Made by a program: the position numbers and the translations under genes
The notes under the pieces: generated by a model
The model's input: the letters and a program-made list of their open reading frames with translations, nothing else
What the model was told of the DNA's origin: nothing
Database searches by the model: none
Source: Escherichia coli
Lineage (GTDB): Bacteria; Pseudomonadota; Gammaproteobacteria; Enterobacterales; Enterobacteriaceae
DNA length: 64,000 nt
Assembly: GCF_024223415.1 (NCBI RefSeq)
Contig: NZ_CP100500.1
Reading direction: 5' to 3' (one strand)
Part shown: piece by piece, positions 12,987 to 21,739 of the stretch
Layout of the letters: each line of letters begins with the position of its first letter
How positions within the stretch are numbered: position 1 is the first letter of the stretch

Positions 12987-13910
12987 TCACTTATGCCGCG
13001 CCGGACGATTTATTTTTCTGGCGCGGCGACGGGAATCCATTGAAATCAAAATCACCGATGACAGAATCAGCAGCGTTCCCAGCCAGTCCGGTAATGTGAA
13101 CGTGATCCCCAGCAACAGCAAAGAGAGTAGCGCGCTACTTAATGGTTCTGCACAGCTCAAAATGCTGGCTTTTGGACCGCCAATTAATTGTGCTCCTTTC
13201 AGGTACAGACTAAATGTCAGGGACGTACCAATGACCACCAAATAAAAAAACGCCAGAATCAAACTGCCGTTAACGACAAAGTTTGTTCCTTGTCTGGCAT
13301 AAAAAGGCAACAGAATCAGACCGCCAATCAGCATACTCCAGCCGACGACTGGTAACGTGCCATAGCGGGCAATTAGCGTTGAGGGATAGGTGGTATAGAA
13401 TGCAGCAGCAAATGCCGAGGCAATGCCCCAGAACAACGCGGCAGGAGAGATCGATAATGACGTCGGATTACCGTGTGTCACCAATAAAAAAGTCCCGACC
13501 AGCGATGTCAAAATAGCGCAGAAAACCAGAATGCCCGGGCGCGATTTACGCACCAGTGAGAACCAGGCGACGATAATCGTCGGTGAGAGGAATTGCAGCA
13601 CCGTTGCCGTGGCTGCGTTCGATTTTTCGATGGTTAGCAAAAAAGTGAGCTGTACAGTTAGCGCGCCAACCACGGAAAAAATCAGCAGGCTAATGGCATC
13701 TTTATGATTGTTAATAATAGAAAAGATTTTATCGCCATGAACAAATGACAGCGTCAGTAGAATCAAACCGGCGAATATCAAACGCGTCATAGTCAAAAAC
13801 TGCGACGACATCTGGCTTTGCTCCATGATGTATTGCGCGCAGACCCCTGAACTTCCCCACAACACGGCGGCAATCAGAACGTTCAGCATCCCCTTTCTGG
13901 TGGAACCCAT
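12987..13910 (-). CDS. yicL: EamA/DMT-family inner membrane transporter
   Basis: 307-aa 10-TM ORF; synteny. Confidence 0.85.
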
Positions 13911-14020
13911 TTTTCCCTCTGCATACTGTTTTGTCGTTTATGTATGCAGGCATGATAGCAAAAATGGCGAGGATGGCTCTGTTTGCGCCACGCCGATTTT
14001 TCTTAGTCCAGACTGGTGAG

Positions 14021-15205
14021 CTAAATATCTTTAATAAACAGCAAGCAAATCATCGCAATACCCAACATCCCTATCGCCAGCCAGAACAACGCATGGTAGC
14101 TCCAGATTTCAACCATAATTCCGTCAACAGAGCCGGCGATAATCCAGCCGACGCGTGAAGTATTTGCATATAACGTTGTCGCAGAGCCTATTTTTTCAGG
14201 CATCAGGTCCTGAAAATAAAGCATGCCGATACCACAGAGAATACCAAGGAAGATGGCATTTAGAATTTGCAATTCCAGCTCAACTGCCGGAGTCGTCGCC
14301 ATGAGTACGCTGGCGTAAAAACACATTCCACTCACGATAGCAATGAGCATTAATAGCCGCTTGCCAATACGTTTCATGTAATAGCCTGCGATTAACATCA
14401 TCGGAATTTCCAGACCGGCAGCGATACCAATCATTTCTCCAGCCAGTTTATCGGTTAGATGCAGTTCATCAATAATAAATAGCGGCATATTTATCATGTA
14501 GAGATTATTCGCCGCCCACATCATTGAACAGACCACAAAAAGTAGCCGCGTATCCCGCTTCCTGTGGGTGGAGGGTAAAATTTCTATGGGTTGGGTAACG
14601 ACAGGAATATTTCTTTGTATTGATGGCAAAAACAACCAGACTATCAGTCCGCAAACAACAAATGCGATGGCAGCGGTGAGATACATCACTTTAAAACTAA
14701 ATCCCATAGCCAGTTCATAAGCGAGCGGTGGCCCGATAACCCAGGCAAGCGAGATCTGAGCACGTAAAAATGTACTGAACATGACCGTCTCACGGCCTGT
14801 TCTGTCGGCGTGTTCACGGGCGAGAGCGAACATTTGCGGGTTTGCGGTAGAAGCAAAACTACTCAGAAGTACGCCCGTAGAGAGCAGAATGAAGTAGTTG
14901 CGATTCCACGCAAAAAGCGTGCAGGCCAGCACTCCAAATAAGCAACATAGCAGGATCAGTAATTTACGGTCGCCTTGTTTATCGGAGTGCCTTGCCAGAA
15001 ATTGACTGACCAGAATTCCCATAATAGCGCTACCGGTGAAGAAAAAACCTACCATTATAGGACGGGCTTTCAGTTCATCTGCGAGGAATATACTTAGGGT
15101 AGGAGTCTGAAGAGCGCCCGCAATACCCGTCAGAAAGGCGACAAGTAAAAATGCCGCGGCAGTGAGATCAAGTATTTTTGATGGAGTGGTAGCCGTTTTT
15201 TGCAT
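14021..15205 (-). CDS. setC: Sugar efflux transporter C-like MFS protein
   Basis: 394-aa MFS ORF; position next to selC att remnant. Confidence 0.85.
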   Translation of the reverse strand: MQKTATTPSKILDLTAAAFLLVAFLTGIAGALQTPTLSIFLADELKARPIMVGFFFTGSAIMGILVSQFLARHSDKQGDRKLLILLCCLFGVLACTLFAWNRNYFILLSTGVLLSSFASTANPQMFALAREHADRTGRETVMFSTFLRAQISLAWVIGPPLAYELAMGFSFKVMYLTAAIAFVVCGLIVWLFLPSIQRNIPVVTQPIEILPSTHRKRDTRLLFVVCSMMWAANNLYMINMPLFIIDELHLTDKLAGEMIGIAAGLEIPMMLIAGYYMKRIGKRLLMLIAIVSGMCFYASVLMATTPAVELELQILNAIFLGILCGIGMLYFQDLMPEKIGSATTLYANTSRVGWIIAGSVDGIMVEIWSYHALFWLAIGMLGIAMICLLFIKDI

Positions 15206-15841
15206 TCTTCTGAATCACCGGGCGACAAAATATAACTGAGTTACAAATAAGTACCAGTCGAATGAGTATTGTATTAAGAATTTTTGAGTATCGCTGATAC
15301 AACCAGAAAACAATGCTAGCGCAATATTATAGGGCCAGCAATTGAGATTATTAGCAAAAGCATGTTAAGAATTAATCACCGAATTTATATTTAATTATAG
15401 TAAGGCAATGAGCTATTTTTGATAGTAAAAATAAAACAAGTTGATTTGATATATTAAATGAACAAATTAATCTTGATGGCAGTCTGATTATTGGTGAAGT
15501 TTATAGGTCAGTTTTTTTCGCCAGCTGTTAAAGGAATAGAACAGTCGTATAAAAAAGGGTGTTCTGGAGCGTGTAAAACAACATCTTCACCTTAATGGCG
15601 ATACAGTTGGCTGAGAGTCAGCAGGGGGGCAAATCACCTGCAAATAAACACGGCGCATGCTGGCGCGAATATCGCGGATGCGTTCGAGGACAGAAGAACC
15701 GACAGGCGGATTCTTCAGTCGCTCATCGTCCATCACAAAACCTTTGATCAGGTATTCCTGAAGCCGATTGAATATTGAGCAGTAGAAAATCTCTGGATTG
15801 ACAGTATTACAAGGGGTTGGAGAATGTCAGAAGAGGCATTT

Positions 15842-15865
15842 TGGCGGAGATCACAGGAGTCGAAT
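15842..15865 (-). repeat. Partial copy of the selC (tRNA-Sec) 3' end; island-distal att repeat
   Basis: tggcggagatcacaggagtcgaat is the reverse complement of the tRNA-Sec 3' end GGTTCGACTCCTGTGATCTTCCGCCA with one deleted base; no remainder of the tRNA follows. Confidence 0.75.
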
Positions 15866-15996
15866 ATAAGTATTAATGCATTGATCTTAAATAATTTGTA
15901 TGTATTGGATAAATGAGTAACCCCCATAAGAACCCCCAAATGATTTTGCATGAAGGAATGAAGCTAAAATACATGATTGAATCAATTCTTAGTACT

Positions 15997-16842
15997 CTAT
16001 TGTGAAGGTAACATTTCCGGATAGTGTCTGGCTATAATATCATTTAGCCGATCAACCAGTTCTGGTTTCCTGAACGTGATGTGCGCGGAGCCTTTCTTAA
16101 AGTATCTGATGCTGAACATCTCATCTTCATAGCACTCTTTACCCTGAACAGACCGGATGTGATCATCCAGATGAATGGTGATGTTTTCCCGGTTGTCGGG
16201 GATCGGTTTACCGCTGAACAGGTGCAACATTCTTTCCAGATCGGCGAGTCGGTCAGCCTGTTGCCCGGTGATAAGATGAAATCCCCACCGGTCCCACCTT
16301 ACTAGGTTGTTAATGATAATTTTACTGCCAAATTTACAGGGGCAATTAGTTTTGTAATTCCAGCTCAGTCCCCTGAAGACGTTGATCACCCCTCGCTCAA
16401 ACACTTCATCTTTGTTCTGGTGCAGTTGTTTAAATGTGCTCAGAATGTTCGCTTCACTGATTTCCGGAAAATTATCGTACTCCAGTGACCGGTACCATGT
16501 ATCACGGGCCTGCGCATCCATTAATGACAGCATCCCGGAACGTTGCATCAGGTCACGCCAGATTTCGCGGTCAAGGTTGCGGGTGATGGCTTTCATTGCT
16601 GTTTCAGGTTTCTCCATGAGCCAGCATCCGCAGCGAAAATCCTGTTTCATCGCCCAGTCCCGTGCGCTTTTACCACCAATGCTTTTTGTCAGTACTGAGA
16701 TTTCAGTCAGTTGCCGGATAAGCGTTTCGGTTTGTTGCAGTGCTGCATTCCGTACCGTCACAACGTGTCGGATACTGGTGGAGCAGATAACGTCCGTATT
16801 CCCGGTGACCACTTCCGGATGGGAGATTGTGATGTTTGACAT
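15997..16842 (-). CDS. Hypothetical protein, DUF4942-like, typical of CP4-like island ends
   Basis: 281-aa ORF next to the cbtA/yeeW-like genes; family assignment from memory. Confidence 0.55.
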   Translation of the reverse strand: MSNITISHPEVVTGNTDVICSTSIRHVVTVRNAALQQTETLIRQLTEISVLTKSIGGKSARDWAMKQDFRCGCWLMEKPETAMKAITRNLDREIWRDLMQRSGMLSLMDAQARDTWYRSLEYDNFPEISEANILSTFKQLHQNKDEVFERGVINVFRGLSWNYKTNCPCKFGSKIIINNLVRWDRWGFHLITGQQADRLADLERMLHLFSGKPIPDNRENITIHLDDHIRSVQGKECYEDEMFSIRYFKKGSAHITFRKPELVDRLNDIIARHYPEMLPSQ

Positions 16843-16926
16843 TATCGGTTTCCCTTTTGGTTTATAAACGAAAACGCCAGCCGTATTCAGGCTGGCGTCA
16901 GTGGAATGAAGTCTGGTGAGTAAGGC

Positions 16927-17124
16927 TCACCGGTTCTGTTGCAGAAGCTGCAGTTGGCGCAGGGTATGGATATCCTCCCTCGCCTGTTCAATGCAGGGCA
17001 GCAGTGCTGCCGAATCCGTTTTATCCTCATCGTTGTCAAAGATAATTCCCGATTCGCAGTCGATATTGTCCTGCAGCCACGCAATCAGAATATCCAGTGC
17101 TGTTTCCGTGGTTAATGATTTCAT
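16927..17124 (-). CDS. Small acidic hypothetical protein
   Basis: Start MKSLTTETALDIL inside ORF 16927..17169; no assignable family. Confidence 0.35.
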   Translation of the reverse strand: MKSLTTETALDILIAWLQDNIDCESGIIFDNDEDKTDSAALLPCIEQAREDIHTLRQLQLLQQNR

Positions 17125-17135
17125 GTTGTTCCTGG

Positions 17136-17624
17136 TTACCAGTTGAAAGTGGGTAAACCCGGCAGGCATTCAGAGCTGGCATCCAGATGAATGAGACTGA
17201 CGCCATAACGTCGGGTAAGTGTGACAACCAGACAACGGAACGTTTTTGACAGGCCCAGGCGCTTAAGCCGCAGAACCGGGTATGACCACGCATCGGTACG
17301 TAACAGATAGCCGCTACCTGTGAAATGAATCCATTCTGATTCACCAACGTCACTGGTCTGATGCGACAGCGAGTACAGCCAGGCGTTATCCTTTTCCGTG
17401 ATATGTGCGGTACTGCAGCGTATGCCGGCAAGGGTTGCAAACGGTGGTAGTGTGCAGGTTGACTGTTGGTCGGATTCCTCCACCACGCGGAGTGAATAAC
17501 CGTTTTCAGCGACCTTGTTAATCAGTTCAGTGAGATTAACACCATCGACGTCAACGACAATTTGCCCCATGTTCAGTGCCTGCACATTAATTCTGTCGGC
17601 TTCCAGCATCAGGGAAAGTTTCAT
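17136..17624 (-). CDS. YeeW-like protein encoded downstream of the CbtA toxin gene
   Basis: 162-aa ORF whose start overlaps the cbtA stop by 4 nt; conserved position in CP4-44-like elements. Confidence 0.5.
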
Positions 17625-17995
17625 CGTTTCTCCGGATGCTTACCCAGGGTAATGTTATTTACCGTTCTGTAATTGTCGCGGGTCATCAGGCCGGTCGCCC
17701 GGCGAGCCCGGAGGATATCAATACTGTTTATTAACTGAGAGCGGGGACAAGTGCTGAATCCCGGCTGGTTGGTACGCACCAGCGCGTATTTTTCCACGAG
17801 AAAATTCACCGCATCACACAGTGAAATGCCAGCTTCAATATGCTGCTCAATCACACGTTCATCGGCGAACGGTGTGTCATTCAGTGTAAGGCCGTAATGC
17901 TGGCCCAGTAGTCGGGAGAGCAGAGTCTGCCAGATGGTGACGGGAGACGGGCAGCTCGATGCCTCCCGTACGTGTGTATCGGGTAATGTTTTCAT
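17621..17995 (-). CDS. cbtA: CbtA/YeeV/YpjF-family cytoskeleton-binding toxin
   Basis: 124-aa protein near-identical in pattern to K-12 YeeV ([32 protein letters not shown]..). Confidence 0.85.
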
Positions 17996-18084
17996 ACTGA
18001 AGGTTTTCCTGATATGCAGAGATGAAAAATGGAAAAGTGGCGTGGTGAAAGCACCAGGCCGGAGCAGAAGGTTATTCCGGTGGT

Positions 18085-18453
18085 TTACTTTTTCGTTTCG
18101 GGCGTCGGATAAACAGCCAGATAAACGTAACCACAGGAGCCGAGGGTGTCGGCTTCGCAGGTCAGCCCTTTCGCATACAGCGTGACGGTATGCTGATGTC
18201 GGGGATTCAGTTCACCGCTGGTGAGCATGAGTTCCAGTTGTTTCATCAGCAGCGGAAAGGCCTGGTCCAGATGGTATGCATCTGCGTCGCTGAAGCGGCC
18301 TCTGATACCGGCGCGGTCGGCAAGGTAATGCAGGCGGTTACCCTCCTGCACCAGACGAGCGCCAAAACAGGGCCTCACTGTGCAGGGAAGCCCCCACCAG
18401 GGGCGGTCGTGATTGTCGTCGGGATGAGTTATCCCGGAGAGTTTGTCTGACAC
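18085..18453 (-). CDS. cbeA: CbeA/YeeU/YfjZ-family antitoxin
   Basis: 122-aa protein upstream of cbtA with conserved YeeU-like sequence. Confidence 0.85.
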
Positions 18454-18615
18454 GATAAAATCCTCTCTGAAAAGTGGTTAAGAATGGTTTAATGATGACA
18501 GGTCAGCCGGCGCGCTGACCGGTTTCGGTGAAGGTGTATTCGTTGATGAGAATGGCCTCATCCACAGCGGCGTCTGAGGTCATCTGGTCGTACTCGTTTC
18601 CCGGGTGACGGAACA

Positions 18616-18837
18616 TCAGTTCAGGGTGACACTCATCAGCCGGACATACGGGCCAAAACTGTCCTTACGGCGTTCTGCAAATACAGCCAGCACACCGGGA
18701 ATATCCTGCACTTCACGACCGGTATACGCTTCAGTGCCACCATGCCAGCGGTATTTGCCGGTACAGAACGGAAAAAGACGGGATGCAGGATGCTGACGGT
18801 GAATACGCATGGCTTCACCACGGGTGATGATTTTCAT
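18616..18837 (-). CDS. DUF987 protein (YeeT/YpjJ family)
   Basis: 73-aa protein MKIITRGEAMRIH...; conserved position. Confidence 0.8.
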   Translation of the reverse strand: MKIITRGEAMRIHRQHPASRLFPFCTGKYRWHGGTEAYTGREVQDIPGVLAVFAERRKDSFGPYVRLMSVTLN

Positions 18838-18905
18838 AGTGTGATACCTCTGAAGACAGAAGATAAAAGTGAAAACAGGTGTGATGTGGTTGTGACGGTG
18901 ACGGG

Positions 18906-19382
18906 TTAAAGCAGACCGTGTTCCGCAAAGGAGAAAACCTGGCTGCCACCGATTATCAGATGGTCCGGCACCCGGATATCCACCAGGGCCAGTGCCTGTA
19001 CCAGACGTTCCGTAATAAGGCGGTCTGCCTTGCTGGGTGTGACTTCACCTGACGGGTGATTGTGTGCCAGCACCACGGCAGCGGCATTGTGATACAGGGC
19101 GCGTTTAATCACTTCCCGGGGATGGACTTCCGTGCGGTTGATGGTGCCGGTGAAGAGGGTTTCACCGGCAATCAGCTGATTCTGGTTATTCAGATACAGC
19201 ACCCGGAACTCTTCACGCTCCAGTCCCGCCATGTTCAGAATCAGCCATTCCCGTGCCGCACGGGTGGAGGTGAAGGCCACACCGGGTTCATGAAGATGGC
19301 GGTCCAGGGTTTTCAGAGCCCGCAGAATGAGACTGCGCTCGCCGGGCGTCATTTCTCCGGGCAGAAAGGAAAGCTGCTGCAT
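18906..19382 (-). CDS. RadC-like JAB-domain protein (YeeS/YfjY family)
   Basis: Start MQQLSFLPGE; HNHPSG metalloprotease-like motif. Confidence 0.85.
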   Translation of the reverse strand: MQQLSFLPGEMTPGERSLILRALKTLDRHLHEPGVAFTSTRAAREWLILNMAGLEREEFRVLYLNNQNQLIAGETLFTGTINRTEVHPREVIKRALYHNAAAVVLAHNHPSGEVTPSKADRLITERLVQALALVDIRVPDHLIIGGSQVFSFAEHGLL

Positions 19383-19397
19383 TGTCCCTGCCTCCAT

Positions 19398-19883
19398 TCA
19401 GTCGATGATGCGCATAATGGCGCTGCATTCCGGATGCTGCAGGGCGTAATCCCGCAGCCGGTAATAATGGACCGTCATGGCATAACACTCCGTACGACAG
19501 GCGTGATGACTGTACGTCATCAGACAGGCAGCAATGCCGGCGGCTTCCGGGCTCATTTCAGCGCGGTTACCGTTCATGGCATTGAACAGTACCCATGTTT
19601 CGCCATCATCGTCATCCGGTTCGGGCGCTATAAATGCGCCACCGTTGTTCAGTGTGTACAGATTCCAGATACCACCGCAGTAGTCTTCGCAAAGACGGTC
19701 CATCCAGCCGAAGATACGGGGCTCCAGGGTCACCCACTGTGGAATGAGGCAAAAATGCTGCGGCCAGAAGCTGATGCGCTGTTCATCAGGGACTATGGTG
19801 GCAACCAGCTGAGGCTGGTCATTCCCTGATGCAGCGGTTACGGAAACAGAAGATGTGGTGGAATTATGTGAAATGGTTTTCAT
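19398..19883 (-). CDS. Antirestriction protein (KlcA/ArdB-like, YfjX family)
   Basis: 162-aa protein starting MKTISHNS; family and position typical of CP4-57-like elements. Confidence 0.75.
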   Translation of the reverse strand: MKTISHNSTTSSVSVTAASGNDQPQLVATIVPDEQRISFWPQHFCLIPQWVTLEPRIFGWMDRLCEDYCGGIWNLYTLNNGGAFIAPEPDDDDGETWVLFNAMNGNRAEMSPEAAGIAACLMTYSHHACRTECYAMTVHYYRLRDYALQHPECSAIMRIID

Positions 19884-19958
19884 GAAATGACTCCTTAAAG
19901 GACAAATAAATGCGTGGTTTTCATGAAATGACTCCTTAAAGGACAAATAAATGCGTGG
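19877..19958. repeat. Two tandem copies of a 41-bp unit covering the RBS and start codon of the antirestriction gene
   Basis: catgaaatgactccttaaaggacaaataaatgcgtggtttt occurs twice head-to-tail. Confidence 0.85.
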
Positions 19959-19978
19959 TTTTCAGGGTAATGGCTGAA

Positions 19979-20797
19979 TCAGCGCAGGCTCTCCAGCAGC
20001 GTTTCCGCCATCACCCACAATGCGCGGTTGAGCTTAATGTCAGTGTCAATGCTGTGAATGGCACGGGTATGGATACGTTTTCCTTTAGCGCTGCGACCTG
20101 AAATTCCGCCTTTCAGCATATTCTCCTGAATGGTCTGATAAGCACTCCACAGGTCCTTACCGTAATCCTCCCGGCGTCGTGGCGTCAGAATGTCGGCGGT
20201 GGTGACGGGCTGATGTTCGTCACCATAACGGTAAGTCAGTGCCGCCTGTGCCAGCGCCTGGCGTGCCGGTGGCGGCAGAATCAGCGACTGCATGGCATCA
20301 CGCTTTTCCTCAATCCGGTCAAAAACCCCCACCACCTCGTAAGCCCCTTCAATAACTTTCTCCACCACATTTCCCCGGTGCGGAACACGCACTTCCCCCA
20401 GAGACTGACCACAGACGCATCCGTTCTGACAGACGAACCTGAAGTAACCCGGCAGCATCTGGTAGCTGGAGGTACCGTCATGGGAGTTGAGCAGAATGAT
20501 TTCAGGGACATGTTCTCCGTTTATCTCTCCGGCCCGCCGCAGACGCAGCATATGTTTTGTGTATCCCCGGCGGCCCGGGTCGCGCACACGGGTCTGGCAG
20601 GCGAAGAATGGCTGAAAGCCTTCCCGCTGCAGGCTTTCCAGTACGGTGATGGTGGGAATGTACGCATATCGTTTACTGCGGGAAGTATGCCGGTCTTCAC
20701 CGAAAATACTGGGAACATAGTGCATCAGTTCTTCGTGTGTCAGCGGACGGTCACGGCGTATCTGGTTCGTATAACCAAAACGACTGGCTAGTCGCAT
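19979..20797 (-). CDS. DUF932 protein (YfjQ/YafZ family)
   Basis: 272-aa protein starting MRLASRFGYTNQIRRDRPLTHEELM. Confidence 0.8.
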   Translation of the reverse strand: MRLASRFGYTNQIRRDRPLTHEELMHYVPSIFGEDRHTSRSKRYAYIPTITVLESLQREGFQPFFACQTRVRDPGRRGYTKHMLRLRRAGEINGEHVPEIILLNSHDGTSSYQMLPGYFRFVCQNGCVCGQSLGEVRVPHRGNVVEKVIEGAYEVVGVFDRIEEKRDAMQSLILPPPARQALAQAALTYRYGDEHQPVTTADILTPRRREDYGKDLWSAYQTIQENMLKGGISGRSAKGKRIHTRAIHSIDTDIKLNRALWVMAETLLESLR

Positions 20798-21208
20798 AAT
20801 TTGCTCCTTATCGGTGGTTAAGATTTACTGGTGTAATAAATGAAAAAGCCACGTCTCCCGGAGAAGACGCGGCCTGATGGGTGAAATGAATGACGTTTAT
20901 TGTCTGAGAAGACCGTCACTGGCGAGCCGCGTATTAAGCACCTTTCCGGCATCGGGTTCAGAATTCCGGCAGCGCCAGCGTCGCTGACCTTCCGTGTTGC
21001 GGATAACCCGACGGAAATGCATTCCCGGGTCATCCTGGATAAACACATTGCGGTAAGCTGTTATGACAGCAACCGCCTGCCCGTATGAGAAAGATCCTTC
21101 AGCCAGGACATACTCTGTGTAACCCGGCATATCTGTTTTCTCCTGATAAATAAAAAGCCTCTGCCACGCGTTGTGACAGAGGCTGAAGCATGAAACTGAC
21201 TTCAGGGA

Positions 21209-21664
21209 TCAGTTAACGTTTTTTCCGGAAACGGTAATCAGCAGTGGATGGTAGTCCTGGGGATTGAAAACCGATAACGGCAGACTGACACGATGGCCGT
21301 TACTTTCTTCAGTTGCTTTAATGATTTCGGTTGTGGCGACATTTTCCACGCACTCCGTTTCCAGAAATGCGTCTGTGGTTCGCGTGGCATTACTGTCACC
21401 AAAAGCTTCCGTTTCCATTTTTCTGGTCACCAGCGTCTGACCATATTTGTCTTTGAGTTGCAGAGTGATGGTGAGGGGGCCAAATCCTTCATCGTTTCCG
21501 CCATTATCCAGCCGGAACTGGTAAGCACAAATATTTCCCGGGAGCCATATCGTATCTGTATTGCGTATACTGATGTAACGTTGATCCTGTGCCCGGAGTG
21601 GGGCAGACCACGTTAACCCCAGAATGAAGGCGGTAATCATGCAGGTTTTGAACAGGTGAATCAT
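21209..21664 (-). CDS. Secreted hypothetical protein
   Basis: 151-aa ORF with N-terminal signal peptide (ITAFILGLTWSAPLRA). Confidence 0.5.
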   Translation of the reverse strand: MIHLFKTCMITAFILGLTWSAPLRAQDQRYISIRNTDTIWLPGNICAYQFRLDNGGNDEGFGPLTITLQLKDKYGQTLVTRKMETEAFGDSNATRTTDAFLETECVENVATTEIIKATEESNGHRVSLPLSVFNPQDYHPLLITVSGKNVN

Positions 21665-21739
21665 GGTATTTACCTCTCTGAGTCATGACGATGACACTGA
21701 CAAATCAGGTGATAAAGCGTAAAAGGCGCAGAATAGCCG

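What the first reader, a model, noticed from the sequence alone, without database searches (positions are those of the whole stretch)
15997..20797. Intact CP4-type toxin-antitoxin / antirestriction module at the island's distal end
The co-oriented series DUF932, antirestriction, RadC-like, DUF987, CbeA, CbtA, YeeW-like, DUF4942-like is complete and all frames are intact, unlike the decayed middle of the island. Overlapping stop/start codons (cbtA with the YeeW-like ORF) suggest coupled expression. This is a well-known module, so novelty is low, but its integrity contrasts with the surrounding IS-driven decay.
Basis: partly seen in the sequence, partly recalled or inferred. Interest (0 to 1): 0.25.

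Follow-up and report, generated by a model that had tools for sequence, protein, structure and literature searches.

The report
Intact CP4-44-type toxin–antitoxin/antirestriction island tail

Summary
Window 15997-20797 (minus strand) carries an unbroken, co-oriented gene series: DUF932, ArdB-type antirestriction, RadC-like JAB, DUF987, CbeA, CbtA, DUF5983 (full-length YeeW) and DUF4942. Every gene has the same length as its RefSeq-annotated homologue in 99.3%-identical E. coli loci.

The gene order is conserved in E. albertii, Yokenella, Citrobacter and Edwardsiella. All nine genes show purifying selection there (dN/dS 0.07-0.28). The cbtA/DUF5983 ATGA overlap is conserved in all loci checked.

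The module ends 132 bp before attR (15842-15864), a 23-nt copy of the selC 3' end. So it is the distal tail of a selC-inserted, AGI-3-like island. The island's middle is degraded: agn43 is hit by IS66/IS3-family elements and a 2-nt deletion.

The module is the full-length form of the K-12 CP4-44 remnant, and 68% of complete E. coli genomes hold a copy at least 80% complete. Integrity is therefore the norm, not an exception.

One minor new point: a perfect 41-bp tandem duplication (19874-19964) doubles the ardB ribosome-binding site and start codon and creates a 9-codon upstream ORF. It is lineage-specific and breaks no frame.

Verdict: already known, low interest.

The parts
15842..15864 (.). 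attR: 23-nt imperfect copy (one base missing) of the last 24 nt of tRNA-Sec (selC). It marks the distal boundary of the island.
   Evidence: 17/17 exact core match to the F404 selC 3' end. The sequence was read directly. K-12 colinearity from setC/yicT stops exactly at 15864, inside selC.
15997..16842 (-). DUF4942 protein, 281 aa, stand-alone. Probably its own transcription unit.
   Evidence: Pfam PF13708, E 3.5e-70. Amino-acid sequence identical to WP_001406222.1. Longer relatives carry a C-terminal SAM-methyltransferase domain, and the protein matches the N-terminal part of phrog_6263 'DNA methyltransferase'. AF2 model pLDDT 90, but no solved-structure match.
16873..16899 (-). Intrinsic-terminator-like hairpin (10-bp stem, 7 GC pairs, T-run) between DUF957 and DUF4942.
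   Evidence: Found in the scan. The stem GCCAGCC/GGCTGGC and the T-run are invariant in 7 loci, including Citrobacter, Edwardsiella and Yokenella, while the flanking spacer diverges.
16927..17124 (-).
   Evidence: RefSeq annotates the identical ORF as WP_000839243.1. It has its own AGGA-N5-ATG. It is present at the same position in 11 other loci. dN/dS is 0.08-0.18. The exact protein is on more than 1000 public contigs. There is no model in the current Pfam or NCBIfam.
17136..17624 (-). DUF5983 protein, 162 aa: the full-length form of K-12 YeeW, which is a 64-aa truncation.
   Evidence: Pfam PF25638 + PF19419. YeeW aligns only to the N-terminal 56 aa. pN 0.22-0.24 against pS 0.71-0.82 in distant genera.
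17621..17995 (-). cbtA (yeeV-type) toxin, 124 aa. Its stop overlaps the DUF5983 start as ATGA.
   Evidence: Pfam PF06755, E 5.6e-61. 87% identical to K-12 CbtA. F65 is conserved; position 15 is C, not R. The overlap is conserved.
18085..18453 (-). cbeA (yeeU-type) type IV antitoxin, 122 aa, GTG start.
   Evidence: Pfam PF06154, E 7.9e-55. 91% identical to K-12 CbeA. Matches PDB 2INW/2H28 at E about 1e-77.
18616..18837 (-). DUF987 (YeeT-type) protein, 73 aa.
   Evidence: Pfam PF06174, E 4e-39. 94.5% identical to YeeT. dN/dS about 0.09.
18906..19382 (-). RadC-like JAB/JAMM protein (YeeS/LfgB-type), 158 aa.
   Evidence: Pfam PF04002, E 5e-45. 97% identical to YeeS, 77% to LfgB/YfjY. The JAMM motif HNHPSGEVTPSKAD is intact in the translation.
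19398..19883 (-). ardB-type antirestriction gene, 161 aa.
   Evidence: Pfam PF03230, E 4e-36. Matches PDB 2WJ9 (ArdB of CFT073) at E 1e-97, with the C-terminal ~136 aa nearly identical.
19874..19964 (.). Perfect 41-bp tandem duplication (2.2 copies) of the ardB Shine-Dalgarno, ATG and first 10 nt. It creates a 9-codon upstream ORF (MKTTHLFVL*) whose stop lies in the second SD.
   Evidence: TRF: 100% matches, score 182. Sequence read directly. The junction is absent from 5426 complete E. coli genomes but present in two draft assemblies, L020 and L026.
19979..20797 (-). DUF932 (YfjQ/YafZ-type) protein, 272 aa. First gene of the series.
   Evidence: Pfam PF06067, E 5e-52. 74-75% identical to YfjQ/YafZ. 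dN/dS 0.07-0.13. The 5' third is mosaic relative to F404.
20897..21130 (-). DUF905 (YkfF-type) protein, 77 aa. A conserved backbone gene just upstream, flanked by terminator-like hairpins.
   Evidence: Pfam PF06006, E 8e-18. Annotated in F404 and NCTC10444. Hairpins at 21184-21156 and 20875-20846.

Best explanation
The segment is the conserved maintenance and establishment cassette that closes P4-integrase-type (CP4-like) genomic islands of Enterobacteriaceae. Here it closes a selC-inserted, AGI-3-like island of E. coli.

**Transcription (inferred).** DUF932 through DUF957 are read as one leftward unit that ends at a conserved hairpin. DUF4942 follows as a separate unit.

**Protein functions (inferred from homology).**
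- ArdB blocks host Type I restriction when the island enters a new cell.
- The RadC-like JAMM protein is a metalloprotease.
- CbtA binds FtsZ, and probably MreB, and stops division and elongation.
- CbeA counteracts CbtA as a type IV antitoxin.
- Together the toxin-antitoxin pair would penalise loss of the island.
- DUF5983 is translationally coupled to cbtA.
- DUF957 is a real, separately initiated small protein.
- The roles of DUF932, DUF987, DUF5983, DUF957 and DUF4942 are unknown.

**Shown here:** gene identities, integrity, synteny, purifying selection, the conserved ATGA coupling, the conserved hairpin and the island boundary.

**Not shown here:** all biochemical activities, the operon structure, and the addiction and establishment roles.
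For: **Family assignments.**

**Integrity.** Gene lengths match RefSeq homologues with no frameshifts.

**K-12 comparison.** CP4-44 is the closest locus and is a deletion derivative: yeeR is truncated, irmA to ardB are lost, yeeW is truncated, DUF957 survives only as a remnant and DUF4942 is absent.

**Synteny.** All nine genes keep their order in E. albertii, Yokenella, Citrobacter and Edwardsiella at 56-78% amino-acid identity.

**Selection.** NG86 dN/dS is 0.07-0.28 for all nine genes.

**Coupling and termination.** The ATGA overlap is conserved. The terminator-like hairpin after DUF957 is conserved.

**Boundary.** attR lies 132 bp beyond DUF4942.

**ArdB.** The protein is nearly identical to CFT073 ArdB, PDB 2WJ9. 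That protein and K-12 YafX and YfjX have in vivo anti-Type I restriction activity (PMC2836571).

**CbtA/CbeA.** The mechanism and the F65 determinant come from PMC5624674. The paralogous pairs are toxic and are neutralised by their antitoxins (PMC5371832).

**Operon precedent.** The paralogous CP4-57 genes yfjX-yfjY-ypjJ-yfjZ-ypjF are described as one operon, and YfjY/LfgB as a protease (PMC10846083).

**Prevalence.** A copy at least 80% complete is present in 3685 of 5426 complete E. coli genomes.
Against: - No expression or activity data exist for this locus.
- Promoter-like and terminator-like hits in the region are no more numerous than in shuffled sequence (12 vs 9.1±3.5; 10 vs 9.1±3.3). 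The operon model therefore rests on the conserved hairpin and the short gaps alone.
- CbtA here has C15. In K-12 CbtA the R15C change abolishes the MreB interaction, although YpjF and YkfI are natively C15 and still block elongation. MreB targeting is therefore uncertain.
- The ArdB mechanism is indirect and unresolved: there is no in vitro inhibition of EcoKI.
- No experiment has shown that CbtA/CbeA stabilises an island.
- None of the proteins matches a PADLOC defence model.
- The 41-bp duplication may alter ArdB translation in this lineage.
Confidence: 0.7

Rival explanations
1. The intact frames reflect recent acquisition and chance escape from IS hits, not selection. On this view the module is a functionless relic like the K-12 cryptic-prophage remnants.
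For: The module is 99-100% identical to copies in other E. coli, so it is young within the species. All three K-12 copies are truncated without obvious harm. The IS insertions in the same island look stochastic.
Against: dN/dS is 0.07-0.28 for all nine genes between genera, with synonymous sites near saturation. Order, spacing, the ATGA overlap and the hairpin are conserved in Yokenella, Citrobacter and Edwardsiella. 68% of complete E. coli genomes keep a near-complete copy, with a median of 3 places per genome.
Confidence: 0.08
2. The cassette mainly serves the host as a stress-response operon. A RadC-like protease would degrade a regulator and the toxins would tune growth under oxidative stress. 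It would not serve the island's own transfer or maintenance.
For: In K-12 the paralogous CP4-57 operon is induced by H2O2, LfgB (YfjY) cleaves MqsA, and its deletion sensitises cells (PMC10846083). Deleting all three toxins lowers oxidative-stress resistance (PMC5371832). The neighbouring agn43-yeeR-irmA operon is OxyR-controlled (PMC4807369).
Against: The RadC-like protein here is only 77% identical to LfgB, and the substrate has not been tested. The cassette travels with islands at many tRNA sites and across genera, which fits element-level selection. ArdB has no obvious role in host stress.
Confidence: 0.15
3. CbtA/CbeA, perhaps together with DUF5983, DUF957 and DUF4942, is an anti-phage abortive-infection or defence module carried by the island.
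For: From general knowledge, many chromosomal toxin-antitoxin systems on mobile elements act in phage defence. The DUF4942 domain is fused to methyltransferases in relatives, which hints at a link with nucleic-acid modification.
Against: None of the ten proteins matches any PADLOC model. The cassette sits next to an anti-restriction gene, that is, a counter-defence gene. No phage phenotype was found for CbtA/CbeA in the papers read.
Confidence: 0.07

Closest known systems
CP4-44 cryptic prophage tail of E. coli K-12 (yeeR-yeeS-yeeT-cbeA-cbtA-yeeW)
   Same: Same gene order and strand logic. CbtA is 87% identical, CbeA 91%, YeeT 94.5% and YeeS 97%; YeeR is 100% identical over 507 aa. The ATGA overlap of cbtA with the next gene is the same.
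   Different: K-12 is a deletion derivative. It lacks irmA, DUF905, DUF932, ardB and the first 10 codons of radC. Its yeeW is a 64-aa stump of the 162-aa DUF5983, DUF957 is only a 30-aa remnant, and DUF4942 is absent. The window copy is the complete form. Its CbtA has C15 and N76 where K-12 has R15 and D76.
CP4-57 (yfjQ ... lfgA/yfjX-lfgB/yfjY-ypjJ-yfjZ-ypjF) and CP4-6 (yafZ ... yafX-ykfG-ykfH-yafW-ykfI) of K-12
   Same: Same core order: ArdB, RadC-like, DUF987, antitoxin, toxin, with DUF932 upstream. ArdB activity was shown for YafX and YfjX. The CP4-57 genes are described as one operon.
   Different: Identity is only 60-81%. Extra genes lie between DUF932 and ardB. The toxins are shorter (109-113 aa). 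There is no DUF5983, DUF957 or DUF4942 downstream.
AGI-3, the selC-associated island of APEC BEN2908; its 'module 5' holds agn43-yeeR-irmA (PMC4807369)
   Same: Same insertion site (selC). Both carry a fos-type GH32 sugar locus, Ag43, YeeR and IrmA, and the same distal cassette. BEN2908 matches the 5.5-kb query at 99.2% over 98%. 'Aec77' and 'aec79' are source names for DUF5983 and DUF4942 homologues.
   Different: The window island differs in IS content and has a broken agn43. The original AGI-3 paper could not be read here.
ArdB of E. coli CFT073 PAI (PDB 2WJ9) and KlcA
   Same: E 1e-97, with the C-terminal ~136 residues nearly identical. Same Pfam family, PF03230.
   Different: The N-terminal ~25 residues differ. 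In this lineage the gene is preceded by a duplicated SD and ATG, which creates an upstream ORF.
SRL PAI of Shigella flexneri (orf49-orf56) and the LEE-negative STEC islands at pheU, pheV and selC
   Same: The same run is listed in the SRL PAI: YfjX/KlcA, YeeS, YeeT, YeeU, YeeV, YeeW-like, DUF957, DUF4942 (PMC6980539). The STEC islands list KlcA, YafZ, YkfF, YeeS-YeeV and DUF957 (PMC6174562).
   Different: Different host islands and cargo. No sequence comparison was made here.

Membership tests
CbtA/CbeA (YeeV/YeeU) type IV toxin-antitoxin | Toxin with a full-length CbtA_toxin domain (PF06755) | tested here: met
   E 5.6e-61, profile positions 1-112 of 112. 87% identical to K-12 CbtA over 124 aa.
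CbtA/CbeA (YeeV/YeeU) type IV toxin-antitoxin | Antitoxin with a CbeA domain (PF06154) immediately upstream on the same strand | tested here: met
   E 7.9e-55. An 89-nt gap separates it from cbtA. Matches PDB 2H28/2INW at E about 1e-77.
CbtA/CbeA (YeeV/YeeU) type IV toxin-antitoxin | FtsZ-interaction determinant F65 conserved | tested here: met
   F65 is present. Its role is defined in PMC5624674.
CbtA/CbeA (YeeV/YeeU) type IV toxin-antitoxin | MreB-interaction determinant R15 of K-12 CbtA | tested here: not met
   The residue is C15. R15 is not conserved in the family: YpjF and YkfI are natively C15 and still block elongation. This does not exclude membership, but it leaves MreB targeting open.
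CbtA/CbeA (YeeV/YeeU) type IV toxin-antitoxin | Toxicity on expression, neutralised by the cognate antitoxin without toxin binding | not testable with these tools
   Requires expression assays.
ArdB/KlcA antirestriction proteins | Antirestrict domain (PF03230) and the ArdB fold | tested here: met
   E 4e-36, profile positions 1-92 of 92. Near-identity to solved ArdB 2WJ9.
ArdB/KlcA antirestriction proteins | Alleviation of Type I restriction in vivo | not testable with these tools
   Shown for CFT073 ArdB, YafX and YfjX (PMC2836571), but not for this allele.
RadC-like JAB/JAMM proteins (YeeS/YkfG/LfgB) | RadC JAB domain with an intact HxHx7Sx2D metal-binding motif | tested here: met
   PF04002, E 5e-45. 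The motif HNHPSGEVTPSKAD was read in the translation.
CP4-like (P4-integrase) tRNA-inserted island, distal backbone cassette | Conserved order DUF932-ArdB-RadC-DUF987-antitoxin-toxin next to the att repeat opposite the integrase end | tested here: met
   Gene order. attR at 15842-15864. Integrase and tRNA-Sec at the other end in the 99.6-100% identical F404 island. The integrase itself lies outside the window (no tRNA found).
Spurious ORF (AntiFam-type 'frameshifted phage protein'), considered for the 65-aa DUF957 ORF | No coding constraint; the ORF is not maintained between diverged copies | tested here: not met
   The ORF keeps its own ATG in 11 other loci. dN/dS is 0.08-0.18 in four comparisons. 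It is therefore a real gene. Equivalence with AntiFam ANF00264 (bioRxiv 10.64898/2026.06.09.728211) is inferred from position only.
DNA methyltransferase (name some sources give to DUF4942 proteins) | SAM-dependent methyltransferase catalytic domain | tested here: not met
   Only PF13708 is found in the 281-aa protein. The methyltransferase domain occurs only in ~465-aa relatives, C-terminal to DUF4942. The AF2 model matches no solved fold.

The most novel reading that the evidence does not exclude
DUF5983 and DUF957 may be working accessory components of the CbtA/CbeA system, for example modulators of toxin activity or expression. DUF5983 is translationally coupled to cbtA by a conserved ATGA overlap. 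DUF957 follows it within 11-34 nt before a conserved terminator. K-12-based work could not have seen such a role, because all three K-12 loci lack intact copies of both genes. DUF4942, a confidently modelled domain with no solved structural relative that is fused to methyltransferases elsewhere, would be a separate unknown function at the island tip.
Probability: 0.18. Interest if true: 0.4.

Novelty: already known. Interest (0 to 1): 0.12.

Why it matters
The practical value is modest.

1. It confirms that this window holds the complete ancestral form of a cassette that the K-12 literature knows only as truncated remnants. This strain lineage would be a better template than K-12 for studying the whole cassette.
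2. It adds comparative evidence (dN/dS, conserved start codon, conserved position) that the 65-aa DUF957 ORF is a true gene. That ORF has no model in the current Pfam, and it appears to correspond by position to the AntiFam family ANF00264, which AntiFam lists as spurious.
3. It records a lineage-specific 41-bp duplication that could change ArdB translation.

None of this changes current understanding of toxin-antitoxin or antirestriction biology.

Tried and rejected
- **Rfam.** A scan of 13000-25000 at E≤1 gave no RNA family.
- **tRNA.** A tRNA scan of the whole window found none. selC lies beyond the window end.
- **PADLOC.** No defence-system model matched any of the ten proteins.
- **Programmed frameshift joining DUF5983 and DUF957** (idea from bioRxiv 10.64898/2026.06.09.728211). 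It is not needed here. In all nine loci DUF5983 ends at TGG-TAA/TAG, and DUF957 starts at its own ATG 11-34 nt later.
- **37-aa ORF at 18503-18616.** It overlaps the DUF987 stop and gene finders call it in L019 and L020. pN/pS is about 1 in every frame, and the ORF is absent from the K-12 and E. albertii spacer allele. Rejected as a gene.
- **DUF5983 structure.** AF2 with an 8-sequence alignment gave pLDDT 52, which is unusable. No fold search was run on it.
- **41-bp duplication as an assembly artefact.** Rejected, because the junction recurs in two other draft assemblies.
- **rhuM fragment as part of the island.** Rejected. It is the K-12 yicT core remnant, outside attR.
- **AGI-3 paper.** The original paper (PMC1347334) is not held.
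- **Genome-collection scan.** The scan with DUF5983 returned only 12 loci, several of them E. coli contamination in MAGs.

Full report
**Observation**

All lie on the minus strand at the stated coordinates:
- DUF932, 19979-20797
- an Antirestrict-domain protein, 19398-19883
- a RadC-like JAB protein, 18906-19382
- DUF987, 18616-18837
- CbeA, 18085-18453 (GTG start)
- CbtA, 17621-17995
- a two-domain DUF5983 protein, 17136-17624
- DUF4942, 15997-16842

A megablast of 15700-21200 against 5,426 complete E. coli genomes found 99.3%-identical loci. RefSeq annotation of two of them, F404 and NCTC10444, lists the same genes with the same lengths. Gene-by-gene translation shows no frameshift or internal stop, and 0-1 amino-acid differences in most genes. 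The cbtA stop and DUF5983 start overlap as ATGA, preceded by GGAG.

RefSeq annotates a 65-aa "DUF957" gene between DUF5983 and DUF4942. The identical ORF is at window 16927-17124, 11 nt after the DUF5983 stop, with its own AGGA-N5-ATG. Neither the current Pfam nor NCBIfam has a model for it.

A 2026 preprint reports an AntiFam ("spurious") family, ANF00264, that sits next to DUF5983 and cbtA/cbeA and argues that it is real. The positional match suggests this is the same ORF. I could not scan AntiFam to confirm it.

I tested coding constraint directly. A genome-collection scan with DUF5983 returned loci from E. albertii, Yokenella regensburgei, Citrobacter sp. and Edwardsiella hoshinae. All nine genes occur there in the same order at 56-78% amino-acid identity. 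Nei-Gojobori dN/dS against the window is 0.07-0.28 for all nine genes and 0.08-0.18 for DUF957. DUF957 is therefore a real gene, and the whole series is under purifying selection.

In all loci DUF5983 ends at TGG-TAA/TAG and DUF957 has its own ATG. No programmed frameshift is needed. The ATGA overlap of cbtA with DUF5983 is conserved in every locus and in K-12.

**Context**

The window from about 20.5 kb to its end is 99.6-100% identical to a selC island of E. coli F404. F404's annotation places a tyrosine integrase and tRNA-Sec at the far end. In between it lists a GH32/OmpG/LacI sugar locus, IS elements, a frameshifted IS100 istA, a frameshifted MFS transporter, YfjI, a GTPase and Ag43. This is the AGI-3 type of island described for APEC BEN2908, and BEN2908 is among the best hits.

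No tRNA lies in the window, so the integrase end is just beyond it.

At the near end, window 15842-15864 is a 23-nt copy of the last 24 nt of selC with one base missing. Below 15864 the sequence is colinear with K-12 yicT-setC. The module is therefore the last 4.8 kb of the island, ending 132 bp before attR. The rhuM-like fragment at about 15600-15760 is the core yicT remnant and is not part of the island.

The "decayed middle" is real. In the window agn43 is split by a 3.9-kb insertion of IS66-family and IS3-family elements (27203-31085). It also carries a 2-nt deletion near 26183.

**Comparison with K-12**

CP4-44 is the closest locus: CbtA 87%, CbeA 91%, YeeT 94.5% and YeeS 97%. The 840-aa protein upstream is 100% identical to the 510-aa YeeR over 507 residues.

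K-12 is a deletion derivative:
- irmA, DUF905, DUF932, ardB and the radC 5' end are gone.
- yeeW is a 64-aa stump of DUF5983.
- DUF957 survives as a 30-aa trace.
- DUF4942 is absent.

CP4-57 and CP4-6 share the core order at 60-81% identity but lack the three distal genes. The window therefore holds the complete form. That is common, not special: 3,685 of 5,426 complete genomes have a copy at least 80% complete, with a median of three places per genome.

**Function (inferred)**

- **ArdB.** It is nearly identical over its structured part to CFT073 ArdB, PDB 2WJ9. That protein and K-12 YafX and YfjX alleviate all four Type I restriction families in vivo. They do not inhibit EcoKI in vitro.
- **CbeA.** It matches the solved YeeU structures.
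- **CbtA.** It keeps F65, the FtsZ determinant, but has C15. In K-12 CbtA the R15C change abolishes the MreB interaction, yet YpjF and YkfI are natively C15 and still block elongation. FtsZ targeting is therefore expected, and MreB targeting is open.
- **RadC-like protein.** It has an intact JAMM motif. Its CP4-57 paralogue LfgB is reported to be a protease, and yfjX-yfjY-ypjJ-yfjZ-ypjF to be one operon.
- **DUF4942.** It is a stand-alone copy of a domain that sits N-terminal to SAM-methyltransferase domains in ~465-aa relatives. An AF2 model is confident (pLDDT 90, pTM 0.83) but matches no solved fold.
- **Defence models.** No protein matches a PADLOC model.

**Transcription units (inferred)**

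Gaps from DUF932 to DUF957 range from -4 to 162 nt. Strong terminator-like hairpins lie after irmA, after DUF905 and after DUF957. The hairpin after DUF957 (16873-16899) has an invariant stem and T-run in seven loci from four genera, while the surrounding spacer diverges. This suggests one unit running from DUF932 to DUF957, with DUF4942 transcribed separately.

As a class, promoter and terminator hits are not enriched over shuffled sequence, so this remains a hypothesis.

**Strain-specific features**

The only length difference from F404 inside the module is a perfect 41-bp tandem duplication at 19874-19964. It is bounded by a 9-nt microhomology (TGAAAACCA). It duplicates the ardB Shine-Dalgarno, the ATG and the first 10 nt. 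The upstream copy opens a 9-codon ORF (MKTTHLFVL*) whose TAA lies inside the second Shine-Dalgarno. The ardB frame is untouched.

The junction is absent from all 5,426 complete genomes. It is present in two draft assemblies, one 100% identical to the window over 5.8 kb. It is therefore a real lineage marker and not an assembly artefact.

The 5' third of DUF932 carries 28 substitutions relative to F404, while ardB to DUF4942 is almost identical to F404. Another assembly (L021) shows the reverse pattern, with the switch at the DUF932/ardB junction. This is the mosaic pattern expected from recombination among paralogous island copies.

A 37-aa ORF at 18503-18616, called by gene finders, shows pN/pS of about 1 and is absent from the K-12 spacer allele. 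It was rejected as a gene.

**Verdict**

The feature is already known and interest is low.

The only open thread is whether DUF5983 and DUF957, which are conserved, coupled to cbtA and absent from every K-12 locus, contribute to the toxin-antitoxin system.

Noticed in passing
window 19874-19964: Perfect 41-bp tandem duplication of the ardB SD, ATG and first 10 nt, creating a 9-codon upstream ORF. It is absent from 5,426 complete E. coli genomes but present in two draft assemblies (GCA_900482235.1 and GCA_044160685.1).
   Followed up: yes
window 24377-31379: agn43 (Ag43 autotransporter) is doubly inactivated. A 3.9-kb insertion of an IS66-family and an IS3-family element lies at 27203-31085, and there is a 2-nt deletion near 26183. 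Because agn43-yeeR-irmA is one operon in other strains (PMC4807369), yeeR and irmA expression may be affected.
   Followed up: partly
window 20483-20770 (5' third of DUF932): A cluster of 28 substitutions and compensating indels relative to F404, while the rest of the module is nearly identical to F404. Assembly L021 shows the opposite pattern, with the switch at the DUF932/ardB junction. This is a recombination mosaic between paralogous island copies.
   Followed up: partly
window 18503-18616: A 37-aa ORF overlaps the DUF987 stop (TGATG), inside a 162-nt spacer allele that K-12 and E. albertii replace with about 70-76 nt. Gene finders call it, but pN/pS is about 1, so it is probably not a gene.
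   Followed up: yes
window 15842-15864 and 15587-15763: attR is a 23-nt partial copy of the selC 3' end. The rhuM-like pseudogene fragment below it corresponds to K-12 yicT. It is core sequence outside this island, perhaps the scar of an older selC element.
   Followed up: yes
window 16873-16899, 20846-20875, 21156-21184: Three strong terminator-like hairpins sit in intergenic gaps on the minus strand. The one after DUF957 is conserved across four genera.
   Followed up: partly
window 17621-17995: This CbtA allele has C15 (R in K-12 CbtA; R15C abolishes MreB binding there) and N76 (D in F404 and K-12). The exact protein is on 27 public contigs.
   Followed up: partly
L012 (Yokenella regensburgei) 2652-2972: A second, divergent CbtA-like coding stretch (45% identity) lies between cbeA and cbtA in the Yokenella locus. 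In the same locus about 1.6 kb is inserted between DUF957 and DUF4942.
   Followed up: no
window 32997-33040: About 44 nt are present in the window but absent from F404, upstream of the GTPase gene region. TRF finds no tandem repeat there.
   Followed up: partly
window 62643 (junction): F404 carries an IS3 copy (L003 38242-39499) that the window lacks. IS content differs between otherwise near-identical islands.
   Followed up: no
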